A DNA stretch of 64,000 nt, taken from the sequence record AP019559. One strand, written 5' to 3'. This document shows positions 7,622 through 14,875 of this stretch, in pieces. The first letter of the stretch is position 1; every line of letters starts with the position of its first letter. Source of the stretch: Escherichia phage SP15. The notes beneath the pieces were generated by a model. It searched no databases, was not told the origin of the DNA, and saw nothing but the letters and a program-made list of their open reading frames with translations. A program made the position numbers and the translations under genes.

Positions 7622-7660
7622 TCAGCCGGGTTGCTAGTCGACCTGGCTTTTATTTTATTT
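7622..7660 (+). terminator. Probable rho-independent terminator after nrdD
   Basis: Imperfect hairpin AGCCGG...CTGGCT followed by TTTTATTTTATTT. Confidence 0.4.
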
Positions 7661-7687
7661 GCTTTCAGCCAAAAATTTATATATAAT
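7659..7687 (+). promoter_or_regulatory. T5-type early promoter (TTGCTT, 17 nt, TATAAT) with conserved ATAAATTTGAGAGGAG leader
   Basis: Member of a reiterated promoter cassette; see findings. Confidence 0.6.
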
Positions 7688-7715
7688 AGATTTATAAATT
7701 TGAGAGGAGAAAGAT

Positions 7716-8295: not shown

Positions 8296-8485
8296 GGGTT
8301 TAAACGCCGCTTTGGAAAACGCATTAATGCAGCACTGGGAAACTGGCTATAAGGATGGTGTTGAATCCTGCGCTACTATGCTAGAAGTTATTGCTAATAC
8401 CTTAATGGAGAAAGGCAATAAAGAATTAGCTGAGCTATTAGACAGTATTGGGCAAAACTTCAGAGAACAGGTGAAAAATGCGTAG
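8264..8485 (+). CDS. Hypothetical protein
   Basis: 73-aa ORF; stop overlaps start of Sir2-like gene (ATGCGTAG). Confidence 0.4.
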   Translation: MAFSKPMLPDKGLNAALENALMQHWETGYKDGVESCATMLEVIANTLMEKGNKELAELLDSIGQNFREQVKNA

Positions 8486-9296
8486 ATTAATTATTATTAG
8501 CGGTGCAGGTTTGAGTGTTGAAAGTGGTGTACGAGCTTTTCGTACTGATACTGCTAGTGGTAAAGCATTGTGGGATGATTATGATCTAGAAGAAGTATGT
8601 AATATTCATGCCTTTCGTGGTAATTTTTATCATAAAACCCATATGTTTTACAACAAGCGTCGTGAAGAGCTAAAAACTGTTGAACCTAATCTTGCTCATT
8701 TGCGTATTGGTGAGTGGTATAAACAATATCCAGGTCAAGTAGTAAACTTGACTACCAACGTTGATGACCTTATTGAGCGTGCTGGCGTTCCACATAGTGA
8801 CATTCTGCACATTCATGGGTACTTAAAAGAGGTTGTTGTGGCTGATAGTCACAATAGTAGTAATAAACGAGTTATTGATGTAGGATACAATTCTATTGAT
8901 CCAGATGACTATAAATGGGTTAAACCTAATGTAATCTTCTTTGGGGAGCATGCTCCAGCATATGCAGAAATGTACAATATTTTTGATGGTATTACCAATC
9001 AAGATATGATCATTGTGGTTGGTTGCTCTAACCAAGTAATTAACTTCTACTGGGAATTATTTCCTATTCTTAACCGTACTGCTGCCAAGCTAATGGTAGT
9101 TAACTACTATGATAGTGCCCTAGCGGCAGAACCAGGCTATCAAGGTATGACTCGTAGTGAGATGTACCAGCTGGAAGAACGCGGTATCCCTTACTGGAGT
9201 AAAGGGGCTGTAGATGCCTTCAGTGATCCTGATTTTATTGCTCGTGTAGAAGCTCATCTAGAGGGTAGACCTTATGTGTCAGGAAGTAAGAAATAA
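8478..9296 (+). CDS. Sir2-family (sirtuin/CobB-like) NAD-dependent enzyme lacking the zinc-ribbon cysteines
   Basis: Sirtuin motifs GAGLSVESGVRAFR, NLAH, TTNVDDLIERAG, ILHIHG; no CxxC...CxxC module between the catalytic His and the C-terminal Rossmann half. Confidence 0.75.
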   Translation: MRRLIIISGAGLSVESGVRAFRTDTASGKALWDDYDLEEVCNIHAFRGNFYHKTHMFYNKRREELKTVEPNLAHLRIGEWYKQYPGQVVNLTTNVDDLIERAGVPHSDILHIHGYLKEVVVADSHNSSNKRVIDVGYNSIDPDDYKWVKPNVIFFGEHAPAYAEMYNIFDGITNQDMIIVVGCSNQVINFYWELFPILNRTAAKLMVVNYYDSALAAEPGYQGMTRSEMYQLEERGIPYWSKGAVDAFSDPDFIARVEAHLEGRPYVSGSKK

Positions 9297-9459
9297 TGAA
9301 TGGGATATTTTCATAACTGAGTCTGGTACTTGGTGCTATAGATTTGCCTATAGGTTTCCTAGTGTAAGAAAACGGCTGGGGTACACATATAAAATTATCT
9401 ACACTACAGATAATATATGGTTGTCCTCTGGAGATGAGGGGAAACAGATATGTCCATAG
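9274..9459 (+). CDS. Hypothetical small protein (WCYR-motif paralog A)
   Basis: 61-aa ORF sharing DIF...G(T/S)WCYR motif with next ORF. Confidence 0.4.
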   Translation: MCQEVRNNEWDIFITESGTWCYRFAYRFPSVRKRLGYTYKIIYTTDNIWLSSGDEGKQICP

Positions 9460-9632
9460 TTAAATCTGTGTATACACATCCCGATGATATATTTGTATGG
9501 GCGGATGGTAGTTGGTGCTATCGATGTGAGCTATGGGAAATGGACTATAAATCTGATGACTATGGTGTCATATATGTTGATACGGTTGAGTATGATACGT
9601 TCTTAGAAAGGGACAAAAATGGAAATAAGTAA
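9450..9632 (+). CDS. Hypothetical small protein (WCYR-motif paralog B)
   Basis: 60-aa ORF, tandem paralog of previous. Confidence 0.4.
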   Translation: MSIVKSVYTHPDDIFVWADGSWCYRCELWEMDYKSDDYGVIYVDTVEYDTFLERDKNGNK

Positions 9633-10125
9633 TACTCCAATTATTTTTCTAGACATTGATGGGGTGCTTAATTCGAGCATCTCCCACCATCATGCACCTG
9701 ATGATGAAAAGATTTTCTTTGGAAGTGACTGGGTTTTTAAGCCACTTCTCAAGGCTTTTCAGGACTTTATTCGTCCTTCTCCAATAATGATTGTTGGGGT
9801 ATCTTCATGGTTCTCTGTCAGGAATGAGATGGAGAACGTTCAGATTATGACCGGATTAGATCTTATCGATCGTTTTCTTGGTACAACGGATTTTACTGGT
9901 GGTGGGCTATCTAGGGGTAATTCTGTTCTTCGCTTCGTTGAAAAGCATAAGCTCAAACATTGGTGTGTGCTGGATGACGCTGGTGCTATGATGTATCAGT
10001 ATCCAACTGTTATAGTCAATGGTAGAATTGGAATAAATCTTCAAGATTTAAGAGCTGTTAGCTATATGTTAGAATTTAGTCCAGATCTTGAAATGTGTAA
10101 AGCCCTACAACAATTTAAGGTGTAA
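9619..10125 (+). CDS. HAD-superfamily hydrolase/phosphatase-like protein
   Basis: Motif I FLDIDGVLN (DxDxV) and downstream VLDDAG. Confidence 0.55.
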   Translation: MEISNTPIIFLDIDGVLNSSISHHHAPDDEKIFFGSDWVFKPLLKAFQDFIRPSPIMIVGVSSWFSVRNEMENVQIMTGLDLIDRFLGTTDFTGGGLSRGNSVLRFVEKHKLKHWCVLDDAGAMMYQYPTVIVNGRIGINLQDLRAVSYMLEFSPDLEMCKALQQFKV

Positions 10126-10127
10126 AT

Positions 10128-10556
10128 ATGTTCAATAATGTGTTCTCTAAAGAAGCTAACCCAATATTAGTTAATTTTTGGCGTACTCTTCCAGCCAACC
10201 TGTACAATGAGGCTATTAATGCTCTGAAAATATGGTGTGAGAATAATGAAATCTCCTTTGCTTTTAAAGGCGAGGTTGAAGAGGCTCCCTGTATTGGTTT
10301 AATTGTGCAGGTGGAGGATGGTCTTGAAGAGATTGTCGGCTGGAAAGAGTTGGATGAAATGGGCTTGGTTTTTGCGTTAAACTATAAGCTGTTTATGCCC
10401 AATAAACACCGTATTGTTGTTAACTATAAAACCAATGAATCTCCTGGTTTTCAAGTTAATGAACGGTATGGTTGGTCTTACTCACCGGAAGAGGTAAATG
10501 ATGGTATCCAGAAACTTCGTCGTTTTGGTTATCAAATTCCGGGTTTAACTGCCTAA
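10128..10556 (+). CDS. Hypothetical protein (tandem paralog 1)
   Basis: 142 aa; shares PCIG, MGL(V/I)xALN, xIPGL with the next ORF. Confidence 0.5.
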   Translation: MFNNVFSKEANPILVNFWRTLPANLYNEAINALKIWCENNEISFAFKGEVEEAPCIGLIVQVEDGLEEIVGWKELDEMGLVFALNYKLFMPNKHRIVVNYKTNESPGFQVNERYGWSYSPEEVNDGIQKLRRFGYQIPGLTA

Positions 10557-10565
10557 GGAGGCACA

Positions 10566-10958
10566 ATGGAACAAGTATATTGGCGTCAGATCGACCCTAG
10601 TTTGGTGAAGCGTGCAGAGAAGCTGCTACAACGTTGGTTGGGGGTAAGACAAGCCTCCTTCACTTTTCCGGAGCAGCAAATAGACGATCCCTGTATTGGT
10701 GTTTTCCTATCAGGCTACGCTAGGGAATGGGAATTGGATTGGAATGAATTGTCTGCTATGGGTTTAATTGTTGCACTAAATTTCTCTTTGTTCCATCCAC
10801 GTGGTTTGGCCATATGTCGTGTGCCTGAGGACGGTTGTTCGCCCCATCTTTTACAGGTGGAAGATGATATTTGGGAGTACACTCCAGATATTCTCAAAGA
10901 AGCCAAAGAACAATTAAACCGTGTTGGAATTTATATTCCAGGCCTGAATGATGAATGA
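10566..10958 (+). CDS. Hypothetical protein (tandem paralog 2)
   Basis: 130 aa; paralog of 10128-10556; strong RBS TAAGGAGG. Confidence 0.5.
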   Translation: MEQVYWRQIDPSLVKRAEKLLQRWLGVRQASFTFPEQQIDDPCIGVFLSGYAREWELDWNELSAMGLIVALNFSLFHPRGLAICRVPEDGCSPHLLQVEDDIWEYTPDILKEAKEQLNRVGIYIPGLNDE

Positions 10959-11097
10959 TTTTTATTGGTTGACCTCTATAATCCGGGCTATTAGTGCTCG
11001 GATTATTGCCTAATCTTTCCAGCTAATTGACAGCATGAATAAATTGTCATTGACAAATTGAATAGATTATGTAATAATATGTGTATTGGAGGTAAAG

Positions 11098-11550
11098 ATG
11101 TCGCTCACACAACAAGAACTTTTAGATAATTTCCGATATGAAGATGGAAAATTATTTAGAACCACAGGAAGAAATGCAGGCAAGGAATGTTGTGTTTCAA
11201 CGGGAAATGGGTATTATCGTATTTCTCTAGGTAGTAAAACTATGCTCCGACACAGAGCCATCTTCTTAATGCATCATGGTTATCTCCCTGATTTAGTAGA
11301 TCATGAGAATACTATAAAAGGTGATGATCGTATTGAAAATCTTAGAGAGCAGACAGTATCCGGTAATCTAAGAAATATCAAATATAAGAAAGGAATGCAT
11401 GTTTACCCTTCTGGTAGTAAGAACTGGCAAGTAGTATTTACTATTAACCGTAAACGTATAGTTAAAGGAACATATGACAACTATGAGGTTGCATGTTCTA
11501 TGGCCAAGATGTTTAGAGGTCAATTATACGGTAGGGAATCAATCCAGTAA
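11098..11550 (+). CDS. HNH homing endonuclease (HNH_3 type)
   Basis: Motif LVDHENTIKGDDRIENLRE; start at ATG preceded by GGAGG; free-standing in an intergenic position. Confidence 0.7.
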   Translation: MSLTQQELLDNFRYEDGKLFRTTGRNAGKECCVSTGNGYYRISLGSKTMLRHRAIFLMHHGYLPDLVDHENTIKGDDRIENLREQTVSGNLRNIKYKKGMHVYPSGSKNWQVVFTINRKRIVKGTYDNYEVACSMAKMFRGQLYGRESIQ

Positions 11551-11648: not shown

Positions 11649-12085
11649 CCGCGATACGGAACAGTTAGGCTGCCCCATTAAGGGTTGTTTTAACTGTTAC
11701 GTGTTAGTTTTTAAGCAAATAATTAATAGAATACTTAGCGATCTGCGTCCCGTAGGAACCCTGGTAAGGCCTCGAAGCAACCTAGATAGAGGTGGTTGTG
11801 AAGTGAGACGGGAGGAGTGAAAAACTCCGAGACGTGATTCTGTAAGTTATATTGCATCTAGTATGAGCTAGTATATGAAGCATTAGGTGAGCAAATCTGG
11901 CTTAGCGGCCATCCTCAAGGATTTGTGCGGTATAGCAAAGCAGCAGCGCAGCGTGAAAGTGGAAGTTGCCACCCCACTTCAGTATTTGCGATTAATTTGT
12001 TGAGAAATTGACAGTAACAGTTGTTCTATTCTTTCTGAATAGTCCTAAAGAAAACTTATTTCATTTCCAACACAGGAGTATTGTT

Positions 12086-14875
12086 GTGTTTTCAATCCTA
12101 CAAGGTCATGCAGGATTTCATCGCGATTTAGCCACAGGCAATTGGCGAGAAGTTAAGGCAGAAGATTATCTTTTTGCTAAAAGATTTTCCTCAAAGCATC
12201 CCGAAGGTAAACCAGCTTCAATGCCCTTCAAGTTTGATGTAATTGATGAAGTTGATCCTCAAACCCTAGTAGAAATGCTTCCTCTTATGAGACGTTTAAC
12301 GTCTGACCCTCATATCGTTGCGGTACGAGGTCGATGTCTTGCACCTAAAAATAATGTGCGACGTAAGAAGGGCAACTTTAATGTATCTAATCCAAGTCAT
12401 ATAATCGCAATGGATGTGGATGGTATTGTAGATACAGGAGGTTGTAACAAGTTTGATCTTGTTGGCATGGCGCGTCATATTATTAGGATGTTGAATAGTA
12501 TTAGTGAGGATATGTTTCCTCTTGATGCAGGGTTTATTGCTCATGCATCATCTTCGGCTGGCCTAAAACCAGGTATCCGAATGCACTTAATACTAGAATC
12601 TAATGTTAAAGTTACACAGGGTCAGATCAAGTTCTTATTTACATCTATCAACGAAAGTAGTAGACAAAAGTATGGCTTTGATATTGCCGACTTAGCTTAT
12701 TACTCTTCCGTACAGCTCCACTATTTTGCAGATCCTTTATTTACTGATGGTATAGTTGATCCGTTTAAAGCGGAGGGTGCTTCACGTCTGGTATTTGTTA
12801 AAGGCTCAAAAGTAAATTTACCTAATAATCTAGTTGACTATGAAACAACTAGAGGAGAGTTTAAAGAGGAATTCTACTCTTTACTCGATCAAATTAAAGG
12901 TAAAAAAGCCGCCTCCGATAAAGTAGAGGAAACTATCAGCGAACTAGAAGAAGCTGAGGATGGAGTGTATCTACGTATTATTCCTAAACTCTATCACAGG
13001 GCTTTAGAGGATGGTGTTGATTTTGCATGGCTAGAAAAAGAAATCCGCCCAGCCTTATCAGAGTATATTGCAACTAAAGATAATAGTCGTAATATTCAAG
13101 ATTATTTTAACAACGGTAGAAAACAGGCTCTGAAAGCGTTTGTTAATAATTCTAAACGTGATATACCGGATGTTTTAAAAGGTATTCCACTTAAAAAGCT
13201 AGAAACTAACTCTCTAGAGACTGATAACTTCTTGAAATTAAATACTGTACCACCAGAAGGTTATATGACTTTTGTAAAAGCAAGTCTAGGTACAGGTAAA
13301 ACTACGGCGGTTGTGCGTTGGTTAGATTCAGGAGTTATTAAGGGTAATTTCTTAGCAATTACCAATACTCGAGCACTGGTATCTTCAAATGCTAAGAAAT
13401 TTAGTGCAGGACAATATGATAAGTCTGTAGATATGCTTAATTTTAAGCGTGGCGCTATTGACCGTATGTCCACAACTATACATTCTTTGCATAAGTTCAA
13501 GAGTTTTATTGGTCAAATCGATGCAATCTTTATCGATGAATGTGACGCTGTAATGAATGACCTATTATTCGCCCCGGTTGTTAAACAACGTCGTGAATGT
13601 ATTCAGGTTCTTCGGGATATTCTTGCAACTGCAAAAATCATTATATTATCTGATGGTGATATTAGTGCTGAAACAATTGAAGCATATGGTTCTTTGATTG
13701 AGTTTGATAAACCGGTTGCATTTTATAATCATCACCGTAAGATGCTGTCAAAAGCTCATGCTTATGAGTTCCCTGATGAATCTAGTATTTGGGTTGCACT
13801 TCAGACCTCTCTAGAGATGGGTGAGAAATCTATTCTGGTATCTGATTGTGGGCCGGATGAGCTGAATGAGAAAGGTATGGCACTGCGTCGTAATACGGGT
13901 GCGTTAGTTAAGGAAATCCATTCAAACTCTACCTCAGATGTGGATATTAGACGTATTCTGGATTACACAACTAATGAACTAATTGATCAACAAATTGATT
14001 GTTTATTATGTAGTCCATCCGTAACGAGTGGTGTTGACTTTAACTATTTTGATAACGTATTTGTTATTACTAGAACTAGTAATCAAGCGCCAAACATGCG
14101 TTTCCAAGCAATCAGGCGCGACCGTGGTGCTCAGAATATCTATTATTTTATTGATAAATCCACTAGTGGATTCTCCGCAGGTTCTGAACAATATAATATT
14201 GATGAGGGTTGGCTGGAGTTAGCACAGCAATTATACGCACGTCGCAGGGAGCTGGAATCTAGGAACTATACTAGTACTTTACGTTATTACTTACTTGATC
14301 AGGGTGCAACTATTGATATTTTCAGTGAAAGCTGGGGAACTATTGAAGGTGCTGGTAAAGAGTATACAGAAGAGCGAATCAAAGCTATTCTGCACTCAAC
14401 TCCTGATTATTGTGCTCCACGTCATGCGGATGCGTATGAAGCTAAACTACTTCTTGTTCGCTATTATCATCTGGAGTCTATTAAAGATGTAACCGTTGAG
14501 CATGTTGAACAATATATCAAAGATAAGCCGAATGATCGAGCTGCATTCTTCCATAAGATGCATGAGATGTTCTGGGAAGATATTAAGAAGTGTTCAAATG
14601 TCACTATCAAACCTTTCATAGAAGCTCTGAAAGGTAAGAAGAAAGATTTCTTCCTTAAAACAGGTCAGAGTGCTAACCCAAAATATGCTAGAATGTATCT
14701 TGGTATGATGGGTATTGGTAAAGATATGAACACGGAGAATATCGTAGACTGGTACAGAACCTATTGTAAAATCGAGTGTATGCCAATTCCTTTCAAATTC
14801 ATGACAGAGGAAGAACGTCAGATGCACGAGGAAGCAATGTCAGAGCTAGGTGCTAGAAATGACAGTGAAGAATAA
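12086..14875 (+). CDS. Large P-loop NTPase / SF2-type helicase, putative replication initiation (origin-binding) helicase
   Basis: Walker A SLGTGKTT, Walker B FIDECDAV; start placed at GTG preceded by AGGAG (ORF track extends to 12008). Confidence 0.65.
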   Translation: MFSILQGHAGFHRDLATGNWREVKAEDYLFAKRFSSKHPEGKPASMPFKFDVIDEVDPQTLVEMLPLMRRLTSDPHIVAVRGRCLAPKNNVRRKKGNFNVSNPSHIIAMDVDGIVDTGGCNKFDLVGMARHIIRMLNSISEDMFPLDAGFIAHASSSAGLKPGIRMHLILESNVKVTQGQIKFLFTSINESSRQKYGFDIADLAYYSSVQLHYFADPLFTDGIVDPFKAEGASRLVFVKGSKVNLPNNLVDYETTRGEFKEEFYSLLDQIKGKKAASDKVEETISELEEAEDGVYLRIIPKLYHRALEDGVDFAWLEKEIRPALSEYIATKDNSRNIQDYFNNGRKQALKAFVNNSKRDIPDVLKGIPLKKLETNSLETDNFLKLNTVPPEGYMTFVKASLGTGKTTAVVRWLDSGVIKGNFLAITNTRALVSSNAKKFSAGQYDKSVDMLNFKRGAIDRMSTTIHSLHKFKSFIGQIDAIFIDECDAVMNDLLFAPVVKQRRECIQVLRDILATAKIIILSDGDISAETIEAYGSLIEFDKPVAFYNHHRKMLSKAHAYEFPDESSIWVALQTSLEMGEKSILVSDCGPDELNEKGMALRRNTGALVKEIHSNSTSDVDIRRILDYTTNELIDQQIDCLLCSPSVTSGVDFNYFDNVFVITRTSNQAPNMRFQAIRRDRGAQNIYYFIDKSTSGFSAGSEQYNIDEGWLELAQQLYARRRELESRNYTSTLRYYLLDQGATIDIFSESWGTIEGAGKEYTEERIKAILHSTPDYCAPRHADAYEAKLLLVRYYHLESIKDVTVEHVEQYIKDKPNDRAAFFHKMHEMFWEDIKKCSNVTIKPFIEALKGKKKDFFLKTGQSANPKYARMYLGMMGIGKDMNTENIVDWYRTYCKIECMPIPFKFMTEEERQMHEEAMSELGARNDSEE

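What the first reader, a model, noticed from the sequence alone, without database searches (positions are those of the whole stretch)
10128..10958. Tandem paralogous genes with strong RBS in the early region
The 142-aa and 130-aa products share several blocks (PCIG(L/V), E(L/W)xW(K/N)EL(D/S)(E/A)MGL(V/I)(F/V)ALN(Y/F)xLF(M/H)P, (Y/I)(Q/Y)IPGL), so this is a duplicated gene pair of unknown function. Duplicated early genes in phages are frequent sites of host-interaction or anti-defence functions.
Basis: seen in the sequence. Interest (0 to 1): 0.4.

Follow-up and report, generated by a model that had tools for sequence, protein, structure and literature searches.

The report
Duplicated T5 early genes, function unknown
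Two neighbouring early genes of a T5-like phage are real, ancient duplicates (the T5.106/T5.107 pair), each built from two copies of a small phage-only protein module called DUF7415; what they do is still unknown, and nothing found here shows an anti-defence role.

Summary
Genes 10128-10556 (142 aa) and 10566-10958 (130 aa) are paralogues (32% identity, E 7e-20). They share the same confidently predicted fold and both have strong ribosome-binding sites. They close a T5-type early operon and are orthologues of T5.106 and T5.107.

New here:
- Each protein holds two copies of the ~50-aa Pfam module DUF7415, so the locus has four copies.
- The downstream gene keeps the family's near-invariant N/H/P/G/G/S motif. 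The upstream gene has lost the His and a Gly. A Klebsiella T5-like phage shows the same asymmetry.
- More distant T5-like phages carry one canonical gene.

Both genes are under strong purifying selection (dN/dS about 0.08-0.10), sit in fixed synteny, and occur in roughly 96% of enteric T5-like records.

One published T5 knock-down screen calls T5.107 marginally "Fit".

Best guess, at low confidence: a non-catalytic binding factor, probably a hetero-complex, serving the phage's own early DNA/nucleotide programme. An anti-defence role is neither shown nor excluded. The family is ordinary and already catalogued.

The parts
7624..7648 (+). Intrinsic-terminator-like hairpin that closes the upstream (nrdD) unit, just before the operon's promoter
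   Evidence: 10-bp stem, 6 GC pairs, T-run. The homologous position is annotated as a terminator in phage AKFV33.
7659..7688 (+). T5-type early promoter (TTGCTT, 17 nt, TATAATA) driving the operon that ends with the pair
   Evidence: Read from the sequence. It matches the T5 promoter consensus cited in the AKFV33 annotation at the homologous site. It was not listed by the sigma-70 scan because TTGCTT matches only 3 of 6 in TTGACA.
8478..9296 (+). Sir2-like gene (T5.102 orthologue), same operon
   Evidence: PF02146, E 1e-25; NCBIfam deacylase subfamilies, below their cut-offs.
9619..10125 (+). HAD phosphatase of the 'Swiss-army-knife' RNA-repair type (T5.105 orthologue). Its stop codon lies 2 nt before the start of the first paralogue.
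   Evidence: PF18143 HAD_SAK_2, E 5e-20. The Sir2+HAD neighbourhood is discussed in PMC9503650.
10117..10122 (+). RBS (AAGGTG) of paralogue 1, inside the 3' end of the HAD gene
   Evidence: Sequence.
10128..10556 (+). Paralogue 1 (142 aa, T5.106 orthologue). It has a two-domain DUF7415 fold, and its second domain has lost the canonical His and Gly.
   Evidence: dN/dS 0.08.
10170..10313 (+). Paralogue 1, DUF7415 copy 1 (aa 15-62; divergent N-terminal type)
   Evidence: Pfam match on the isolated half, E 7.5e-18.
10332..10463 (+). Paralogue 1, DUF7415 copy 2 (aa 69-112). Its motif is degenerate: LF-M-P-NKH instead of LHPxGLA.
   Evidence: Pfam match on the isolated half, E 4.4e-13; motif comparison. 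Its helix WKELDEMGLVFAL is the most constrained stretch of the gene (pN/pS 0.01-0.04).
10557..10561 (+). RBS (GGAGG) of paralogue 2, in the 9-nt spacer TAA-GGAGGCACA-ATG
   Evidence: Sequence. The spacer is 9 nt in 27 of 28 related loci.
10566..10958 (+). Paralogue 2 (130 aa, T5.107 orthologue). It has a two-domain DUF7415 fold, and its second domain keeps the canonical motif.
   Evidence: dN/dS 0.10. T5.107 is called 'Fit' in the CRISPRi-ART screen.
10572..10715 (+). Paralogue 2, DUF7415 copy 1 (aa 3-50; divergent N-terminal type)
   Evidence: Pfam match on the isolated half, E 5e-16. hhalign of the N-terminal-half profile against the single-domain profile gives P 6.6e-4, in register.
10734..10859 (+). 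Paralogue 2, DUF7415 copy 2 (aa 57-98; canonical, with N72, H77, P78, G80, G90, S92)
   Evidence: Pfam match on the isolated half, E 3e-14. The near-invariant columns come from 150 family representatives and 28 single-domain proteins.
10978..11006 (+). 11-bp hairpin 20 nt after the stop codon of paralogue 2; probable end of the operon (weak T-tract)
   Evidence: MFE -17.4 kcal/mol, z -2.66. The next gene has its own promoter-like site at 11050-11078.

Best explanation
SHOWN. These are two real, co-transcribed, closely spaced early genes, the orthologues of T5.106 and T5.107. Each product is a compact, acidic (pI 4.6-4.8) protein made of two DUF7415 modules with an alpha+beta fold. The modules run beta-alpha-beta-beta, then beta-alpha-alpha-beta-beta-alpha, and are packed as a pseudo-dimer. 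The ancestral T5-like gene already had this two-module form and existed as a single copy. It duplicated in the lineage leading to the Escherichia/Salmonella/Klebsiella T5-like phages. After that the copies diverged asymmetrically. The downstream copy keeps the family's near-invariant Asn/His-Pro/Gly/Gly/Ser motif in its second module. The upstream copy lost the His and a Gly but kept the adjacent helix under very strong constraint.

INFERRED. The free single-module relatives (about 75 aa) probably act as homodimers, and the two-module proteins are 'single-chain dimers'. The two paralogues most likely act together as a hetero-complex in which only one of four modules keeps the canonical binding site. 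The proteins have no catalytic signature and are too acidic to bind nucleic acid directly. I therefore take them to be non-enzymatic protein- or ligand-binding factors. They would act early in infection in support of the phage's own DNA-replication, nucleotide or RNA-end metabolism programme, for example by binding and modulating a host or phage enzyme of that programme. I do not take them to be a strain-specific anti-defence device. The target is unknown.
For: Paralogy and fold.

Genes are real and functional: dN/dS is 0.08 and 0.10, matching Sir2 (0.09) and HAD (0.06). No 12-codon window exceeds 0.65. HAD-P1-9 nt-P2 is conserved in 28 of 28 related loci.

History of the duplication: one canonical copy is found after Sir2 in distant T5-likes L085 and L087 and in Pectobacterium phage My1. 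Two copies with the same asymmetry are found in Klebsiella phage P5010. In the NJ tree and motif table the His is lost only in upstream copies that coexist with a second copy.

Core-like behaviour: 521 phage records carry a full-length match, against about 540 enteric T5-like records defined by the origin-binding protein. T5.107 is 'Fit' in CRISPRi-ART on laboratory E. coli (score -2.90, KS p 0.0215), while T5.106 is 'Not Fit'.

Context and fusions pointing to DNA and nucleotide metabolism:
- Single-domain members lie next to the P2 replication initiator gpA in 30 of 65 viral loci and 6 of 8 bacterial loci.
- One lies between nrdD and nrdG, and one is separated by one gene from NudE.
- Fusions occur to the PF04447 dATP/dGTP pyrophosphohydrolase, thymidylate kinase and DUF3850/ASCH.
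- The T5-like pair lies between a Sir2+HAD module, predicted by others to be an NAD-dependent RNA-end repair system, and the origin-binding protein gene.

Non-catalytic and not nucleic-acid-binding: the two-domain members have a median pI of 4.55 and a median net charge of -12. There is no hit to any enzyme family.
Against: There is no direct functional evidence at all.
- The CRISPRi-ART call is marginal. With roughly 150 genes tested at p<0.05, several false positives are expected, and known essential genes such as the primase and T5.108 scored 'Not Fit'.
- Gene-neighbourhood evidence is weak, because early operons of virulent phages mix replication and nucleotide genes with unrelated small ORFs.
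- The fusion partners are heterogeneous and also include Cox, DUF5405, an HTH and a Lar-like domain.
- The link to Sir2 does not hold outside Demerecviridae.
- The near-invariant Asn/His/Ser could be a catalytic or ligand-binding site rather than a protein interface.
Confidence: 0.35

Rival explanations
1. Anti-defence or host-takeover inhibitor. The proteins would bind and block a host immunity protein or another host factor. The duplication would broaden or back up the inhibition.
For: - The proteins are small, acidic, early-expressed and restricted to phages and prophages.
- In P2-like prophages the single-domain gene follows gpA, at the edge of the variable region before the portal gene, where P2 itself carries tin and old.
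- One relative is fused to a Lar-type restriction-alleviation domain (28.8 bits against a cut-off of 28.6).
Against: - The genes occur in about 96% of enteric T5-like records (521 of about 540), sit in fixed synteny in all 28 loci checked, and are under purifying selection with no fast-evolving window.
- The CRISPRi-ART authors note that anti-defence genes irrelevant to the screening strain do not score as fit, yet T5.107 scored marginally fit.
- No literature links the family to any defence system.
Confidence: 0.27
2. Small-molecule binder. DUF7415 dimers or pseudo-dimers would bind a nucleotide-derived ligand such as a dNTP, NAD/ADP-ribose or an immune second messenger. They would act as a sensor, a regulator or a 'sponge'. 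The near-invariant Asn/His/Ser would line the pocket.
For: - Polar residues are near-invariant (N, H, S) in a domain of only ~50 aa.
- Fusions and neighbours are nucleotide-handling enzymes: PF04447, thymidylate kinase, NudE, nrdD/nrdG and Sir2/HAD.
- The size and the presumed oligomeric build resemble known phage sponges (my own knowledge, not tested).
Against: - There is no structural match to known sponge families in the PDB or BFVD.
- The family is not mentioned in the structural survey of signal-sequestering phage proteins.
- Three of the four modules at this locus lack the motif.
- The pocket geometry could not be inspected, because no coordinates are available.
Confidence: 0.12
3. Accessory subunit of the predicted Sir2+HAD NAD-dependent RNA-end repair module that lies directly upstream. 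The pair would target or regulate those enzymes.
For: - The genes share an operon with the HAD gene, whose stop codon lies 2 nt before the start of the first paralogue.
- DUF7415 follows Sir2 in every DUF7415-bearing Demerecviridae lineage examined: the window, T5, P5010, L085, L087 and My1.
- Both are absent at this locus in the Vibrio and Aeromonas relatives.
- The repair prediction comes from PMC9503650.
Against: - rV5-like and other phages have this Sir2 without DUF7415.
- T4-like and P2-like phages have DUF7415 without Sir2.
- The HAD gene is missing in P5010 and L087 although the DUF7415 genes remain.
- The Sir2/HAD function is itself only a prediction.
- Co-presence within one family may simply reflect inheritance of a gene block.
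Confidence: 0.12
4. Enzyme. The near-invariant Ser/His/Asn would form a minimal active site. GenBank records variously name members 'exonuclease' or 'tail tube protein'.
For: S, H and N are near-invariant. Some records give the names 'exonuclease' and 'tail tube protein'.
Confidence: 0.04

Closest known systems
Phage T5 genes T5.106 and T5.107 (YP_006934 / YP_006935)
   Same: They are orthologues. They occupy the same position between T5.105 (HAD) and T5.108 (origin-binding protein). They have the same lengths (429 and 393 nt) and the same 9-nt spacer. Protein identity to the T5 locus (L106) is 97.9% and 94.6%.
   Different: Nothing essential differs. In this window an HNH endonuclease gene (11086-11550) is inserted downstream, before the origin-binding protein gene. 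T5 has a shorter gap there.
Pfam DUF7415 (PF24187) / PHROG 2502
   Same: Both proteins score far above the Pfam cut-off and cover the whole PHROG profile.
   Different: Most family members found (about 130 of 150 representatives) carry a single canonical module of ~50 aa in a protein of roughly 70-170 aa. The T5-like proteins carry two modules. The first is a divergent type, and in the upstream paralogue the second has lost part of the motif.
Single-domain DUF7415 proteins of P2-like prophages and T4-like Klebsiella/Enterobacter phages
   Same: They have the same module as residues 57-98 of the 130-aa protein (35-50% identity). They are also encoded in early, replication or nucleotide operons.
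   Different: They have one module only. They lie next to gpA, between nrdD and nrdG, or near NudE, not next to Sir2. Some are fused to DUF5405 (P2 Orf83-like), DUF3850 (P2 Orf91-like), PF04447, Lar-like or HTH domains.
AcrIC4 (anti-CRISPR, PDB 8dfo chain M)
   Same: It is the best structural neighbour of the model, with 51 of its 57 residues aligned at 2.3 A. It is also a small phage-encoded protein.

Membership tests
Pfam DUF7415 (PF24187) | Score above the curated gathering threshold (27 bits) | tested here: met
   110.9 bits (142-aa protein) and 108.7 bits (130-aa protein), with two matched stretches each. Each half tested alone gives E from 7.5e-18 to 4.4e-13.
Pfam DUF7415 (PF24187) | Canonical motif: the columns near-invariant across 150 representatives (G, L, N, H, P, G, G, S within ...GLxxRINxEILHPxGLA...TGxS...) | tested here: met
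   This holds for the second module of the 130-aa protein only: N72, H77, P78, G80, G90, S92. See the next row for the other paralogue.
Pfam DUF7415 (PF24187) | Canonical motif in the second module of the 142-aa protein | tested here: not met
   His is replaced by Met (LFMP) and Gly by Lys/His (NKH); Asn, Pro and Ser are retained. The same loss is seen in all upstream-copy orthologues and in Klebsiella phage P5010.
PHROG 2502 | Full-length match to the family profile | tested here: met
   E 1.3e-61 and 1.5e-61, covering profile positions 2-134 and 4-134 of 134. The family is annotated 'unknown function'.
Known anti-defence proteins (anti-CRISPR, anti-restriction, signal sponges) | Homology or significant fold match to a characterised inhibitor, or experimental inhibition of a defence system | tested here: inconclusive
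'Exonuclease' / 'tail tube protein' (names attached to some GenBank orthologues) | Similarity to a nuclease or tail-tube fold or family | tested here: not met
   No such hit was found in Pfam, PHROGs, NCBIfam, the PDB or BFVD. The names sit beside 'hypothetical protein' for near-identical sequences.
Sir2+HAD NAD-dependent RNA-end repair neighbourhood (Iyer et al. 2022, predicted) | Conserved linkage of the gene to the distinct Sir2 clade wherever that clade occurs | tested here: not met
   The linkage holds within Demerecviridae. However, Sir2-bearing rV5-like phages lack DUF7415, and DUF7415-bearing T4-like and P2-like phages lack this Sir2 (organism counts).

The most novel reading that the evidence does not exclude
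DUF7415 would be a widespread, so far unrecognised family of early phage effector modules. They would work as dimers to bind and neutralise a host enzyme or immune component connected with nucleotide pools, in the way T7 gp1.2 blocks host dGTPase (my own knowledge, untested here). In T5-like phages the module has been duplicated twice to give a hetero-complex with one active and three degenerate modules. That would be a viral 'pseudo-subunit' design. If T5.107 really is a fitness gene, the target would matter even in laboratory E. coli.
Probability: 0.2. Interest if true: 0.6.

Novelty: already known. Interest (0 to 1): 0.3.

Why it matters
The pair itself is a catalogued, uncharacterised gene family, so finding it is not surprising. 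Its modest value lies in three points.

1. DUF7415 is common. It occurs in about 900 of 50,697 phage records, across T5-like, T4-like, P2-like and jumbo phages, and has 165 cluster representatives in metagenomes. Any function assigned to it would therefore annotate many genomes.
2. The 2x2 module architecture with one canonical and three degenerate copies gives a clear experimental handle. Mutating N72, H77 or S92 in T5.107 can be compared with mutating the equivalent positions in T5.106.
3. T5.107 is one of only five T5 genes of wholly unknown function named among the 'Fit' genes of a genome-wide knock-down screen, although the call is marginal.

Tried and rejected
1. Programmed read-through or a fused product. 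The two ORFs are in the same frame, separated by TAA plus 9 nt. Translation of the span contains the stop. One related locus has a 10-nt spacer, and the Klebsiella pair overlaps (ATGA) out of frame. The shared frame is therefore a by-product of a conserved RBS spacer.
2. Structure prediction of a P1-P2 fused chain to test a hetero-complex. 
4. PDB sequence and profile searches gave nothing. PADLOC gave nothing and NCBIfam gave nothing.
5. General Sir2-DUF7415 coupling was rejected from the organism distributions.
6. Positive or diversifying selection was not found. The highest 12-codon window has pN/pS 0.65, and most are below 0.35.
7. The N-terminal half of the 173-185-aa prophage fusion proteins looked MazG-like by eye (EKWG...EEVGE). 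Pfam did not confirm this. Only the PF04447 fusions P0140 and P0144 are confirmed.
8. Literature searches for DUF7415, T5.106, T5.107 and the locus tags found no paper text. The only mentions are in the supplements of PMC11879866.
9. The scan of bacterial genomes found only 8 loci. Seven carry P2-type prophage genes (gpA and/or portal and terminase), so there is no evidence for a cellular (non-prophage) homologue.
10. P0097 and P0132, long Ig-repeat proteins in the representative search, are false positives with no DUF7415 domain.

Full report
WHAT THE WINDOW IS. The region around the finding is 97.6% identical at the DNA level to Salmonella phage 8sent1748. It is 92-95% identical to many Escherichia and Salmonella T5-like phages of the genus Tequintavirus, family Demerecviridae. 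In the annotated relative AKFV33, the two genes correspond to orf109 and orf110, described as similar to T5.106 and T5.107. The genome of T5 itself (locus L106, 121,750 bp) encodes proteins 97.9% and 94.6% identical to the two products.

CHECKING THE OBSERVATION. ORFs 10128..10556 (142 aa, called P1 here) and 10566..10958 (130 aa, P2) exist as described.
- BLASTP between them gives 32% identity over 124 residues, E 7e-20, so the similarity is far beyond chance.
- Both match Pfam DUF7415 (110.9 and 108.7 bits; cut-off 27) and PHROG 2502 over its full length.
- AlphaFold2 models built with a 35-36-sequence alignment are confident: P2 has pLDDT 95.4 and pTM 0.89; P1 has pLDDT 88.9 and pTM 0.83, with only its first 11 residues disordered.
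- The P1 model superposes on the BFVD model of a P2 orthologue at TM 0.85/0.92 and rmsd 1.7 A.
- Both genes have strong Shine-Dalgarno sequences: AAGGTG 5 nt upstream of P1 and GGAGG 4 nt upstream of P2.

ANATOMY BEYOND THE OBSERVATION. Pfam reports two matched stretches in each protein. When the halves are scanned separately, all four match DUF7415: P1 aa 15-62 (E 7.5e-18) and aa 69-112 (E 4.4e-13); P2 aa 3-50 (E 5e-16) and aa 57-98 (E 3e-14). The locus therefore holds four copies of a ~50-residue module.
- The predicted secondary structure repeats: beta-alpha-beta-beta, then beta-alpha-alpha-beta-beta, followed by a C-terminal helix.
- An independent profile-profile comparison of the N-terminal halves with single-domain relatives aligns them in register, with P 6.6e-4.
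- The N-terminal module is thus a divergent copy of the C-terminal one.

The genes are the last two of an operon. It starts at a T5-type early promoter (TTGCTT-N17-TATAATA, 7659-7688), directly after a terminator at 7624-7648. It contains a Sir2-like gene and a HAD phosphatase of the 'Swiss-army-knife' type. It ends at an 11-bp hairpin at 10978-11006. The HAD stop codon lies 2 nt before the P1 start. P1 and P2 are separated by 9 nt.

THE FAMILY. An exhaustive HMMER search of 1.84 billion cluster representatives found 165 proteins at E <= 1e-3.
- About 18 are two-module proteins like P1 and P2.
- The rest match only profile positions ~55-110, the second module. Most are small proteins; 42 of them are 100 aa or shorter.
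- The single-module proteins are strongly conserved, with consensus IDWNxLSxLGLIxRINxEILHPLGLAIxRxPETGxSxGxLVxDDGxWEY. N, H, G, G and S are invariant in 28 sequences. G, L, N, H, P, G, G and S are at least 90% conserved across 150 representatives.
- In the phage collection, about 900 of 50,697 records carry the module. These include T5-like phages; T4-like phages of Klebsiella, Enterobacter, Cronobacter and Aeromonas; P2-like phages (phiCTX, a Yersinia phage); and some jumbo phages.
- In species-representative bacterial genomes the scan found only 8 loci, and 7 carry P2-type prophage genes. The family is therefore phage-restricted.
- The family is acidic. Two-module members have a median pI of 4.55 and a median net charge of -12. 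Of the single-module proteins, 81% have pI below 6.

EVOLUTIONARY HISTORY OF THE PAIR. All 28 related loci from IMG/VR keep the order HAD, P1, spacer with RBS, P2.
- A Klebsiella T5-like phage (P5010) also has two adjacent genes (133 and 131 aa), but no HAD gene.
- More distant T5-like phages have a single two-module gene in the same place, downstream of Sir2. These are two metagenomic contigs (L085, L087) and Pectobacterium phage My1.
- A Vibrio and an Aeromonas member of the Demerecviridae have neither Sir2 nor DUF7415 at this locus.
- The downstream copy (P2, and the second P5010 gene) keeps the canonical residues N72, H77, P78, G80, G90 and S92.
- The upstream copy has Met in place of His and has lost a Gly in every two-copy genome.
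- Single-copy genes that cluster with the upstream clade in a neighbour-joining tree still have the His. The tree has no bootstrap support and the proteins are short, so its topology is only indicative. The motif pattern itself is read directly from the sequences.
- Both paralogues are under purifying selection. Summed dN/dS is 0.078 for P1 and 0.095 for P2, against 0.094 for Sir2 and 0.062 for HAD. No 12-codon window approaches 1.
- The most constrained stretch of P1 is the helix WKELDEMGLVFAL of its degenerate module, with pN/pS 0.01-0.04.
- About 521 phage records carry a full-length P2 match. About 540 enteric T5-like records can be recognised through the origin-binding protein at 60% identity or more. 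Presence is therefore near-universal in that group, though the two sets were not matched record by record.

CLUES TO FUNCTION. Context of single-module genes:
- In 30 of 65 viral loci they lie next to the P2-type replication initiator gpA (PF05840). They are often flanked by a C5 DNA methylase and followed by the portal and terminase genes.
- P2 itself has Orf91 (a DUF3850 protein) in that slot.
- In Klebsiella T4-like phages one such gene lies between nrdD and nrdG. In KP15 one lies a single gene away from a NudE Nudix hydrolase.

Fusions are rare and mixed: 145 of 150 representatives match DUF7415, and few of them carry any second Pfam domain. The partners seen are PF04447 dATP/dGTP pyrophosphohydrolase (2), DUF3850/ASCH (2), thymidylate kinase (1), Cox (1), DUF905 (1), DUF5405 (P2 Orf83-like), an HTH domain, and a Lar-type restriction-alleviation domain at its threshold.

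Iyer et al. 2022 (PMC9503650, section 3.7.3) predict that the Sir2 plus 'Swiss-army-knife' HAD neighbourhood of SP15-type (T5-like) phages is an NAD-dependent RNA-end repair system. They do not mention the downstream genes. Outside the Demerecviridae the Sir2 link fails. rV5-like phages have this Sir2 without DUF7415, and T4-like and P2-like phages have DUF7415 without it.

The only experimental data I found are in the supplements of the CRISPRi-ART paper (PMC11879866).
- Both genes are listed there as 'unknown function, phrog_2502'.
- T5.107 is one of 17 'Fit' genes (score -2.90, KS p 0.0215, 5 guides). T5.106 is 'Not Fit' (-3.28, p 0.167).
- The T5.107 call is marginal. Strong hits score between +2 and +4, the background lies around -3 to -4.5, about 150 genes were tested, and genes expected to be essential (primase, T5.108) scored 'Not Fit'.

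INTERPRETATION. Shown:
- a real, selected, co-expressed pair;
- a four-fold module repeat;
- a lineage-specific duplication followed by asymmetric loss of the canonical motif;
- a phage-only, acidic family with no relative of known fold or function.

Inferred:
- single-module proteins act as dimers, and the two-module proteins are covalent pseudo-dimers;
- P1 and P2 act together, with one canonical site out of four modules;
- the proteins bind a partner rather than catalyse a reaction or bind nucleic acid;
- near-universal conservation, purifying selection, the contexts and the weak fitness signal lean towards a role in the phage's own early DNA, nucleotide or RNA-end programme rather than a host-strain-specific counter-defence.

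I put this at about 0.35. The anti-defence or host-takeover reading is at about 0.27. Ligand binding and Sir2/HAD accessory roles are each at about 0.12, and an enzymatic role is at about 0.04. None can be separated further without multimer modelling, pull-downs and deletion mutants.

COMPARISON WITH WHAT IS KNOWN, AND NOVELTY. The genes are members of Pfam DUF7415 and PHROG 2502 and orthologues of T5.106/T5.107, so the family is already catalogued, though uncharacterised. Names such as 'exonuclease' and 'tail tube protein' attached to some GenBank orthologues have no support from any search run here. As far as I could find, two things are not written down elsewhere: the two-module build of each protein, and the asymmetric decay after duplication. 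These are incremental. The finding is real but ordinary, and I score interest at 0.3.

Noticed in passing
window 9274-9459 and 9450-9632 (+): A second tandem paralogue pair sits just upstream. The two small ORFs (61 and 60 aa) overlap by 10 nt and both match phrog_5116 (E 7e-24 and 2e-29). They correspond to T5.103/T5.104 and share a W..G(S/T)WCYR motif. Their function is unknown.
   Followed up: partly
window 9619-10125 (+): The 168-aa product is a HAD phosphatase of the 'Swiss-army-knife' RNA-repair type (PF18143, E 5e-20). Several GenBank records and PHROG 18062 label it 'Sir2 (NAD-dependent deacetylase)', apparently carried over from the real Sir2 gene at 8478-9296. Iyer et al. 2022 predict that the Sir2+HAD pair is an NAD-dependent RNA-end repair module.
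   Followed up: partly
window 11050-11550 (+): An HNH endonuclease gene (154 aa, PF13392) with its own near-consensus promoter (TTGACA-17-AATAAT, 11050-11078) lies between the pair and the origin-binding protein gene. T5 has only a 618-nt gap there, so this looks like a homing-endonuclease insertion that is present in some T5-like phages and absent in others.
   Followed up: no
window 12008-14875 (+): The mechanically listed 955-aa ORF starts at a TTG. Its orthologues (T5.108 at 2787 nt, AKFV33 orf112) are about 928 aa, so the true start is probably near 12089. T5.108 scored 'Not Fit' in CRISPRi-ART, although a replication-origin-binding protein would be expected to be essential. This illustrates the low sensitivity of that screen.
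   Followed up: no
loci L057, L079, L041, L029 (IMG/VR P2-like prophages); P0190; L084 (phage P2): In P2-like prophages the single DUF7415 module sits immediately after the replication gene A. It is fused in different lineages to DUF5405 (P2 Orf83-like), DUF3850 (P2 Orf91-like), a Lar-type restriction-alleviation zinc ribbon, an HTH domain, or an unassigned N-terminal domain with an EKWG...EEVGE motif. The small accessory ORFs around gpA therefore seem to be shuffled and fused freely.
   Followed up: partly
P0049 (74 aa, seen on a 106,880-bp contig); BFVD A0A5C0CHJ0 (74 aa, Salmonella phage SE11): Truncated or chimeric versions of the paralogues exist in some T5-like genomes. P0049 joins the first ~55 residues of the upstream paralogue directly to its C-terminal tail. 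Loss of the middle of a copy is therefore tolerated in at least some phages.
   Followed up: no
L085:5390-5650 and L118:3630-3902: In the single-copy T5-like phages, a small unrelated ORF of 86-90 aa with no Pfam or DUF7415 match lies next to the DUF7415 gene. It lies after the gene in L085 and before it in My1. It was not examined further.
   Followed up: no
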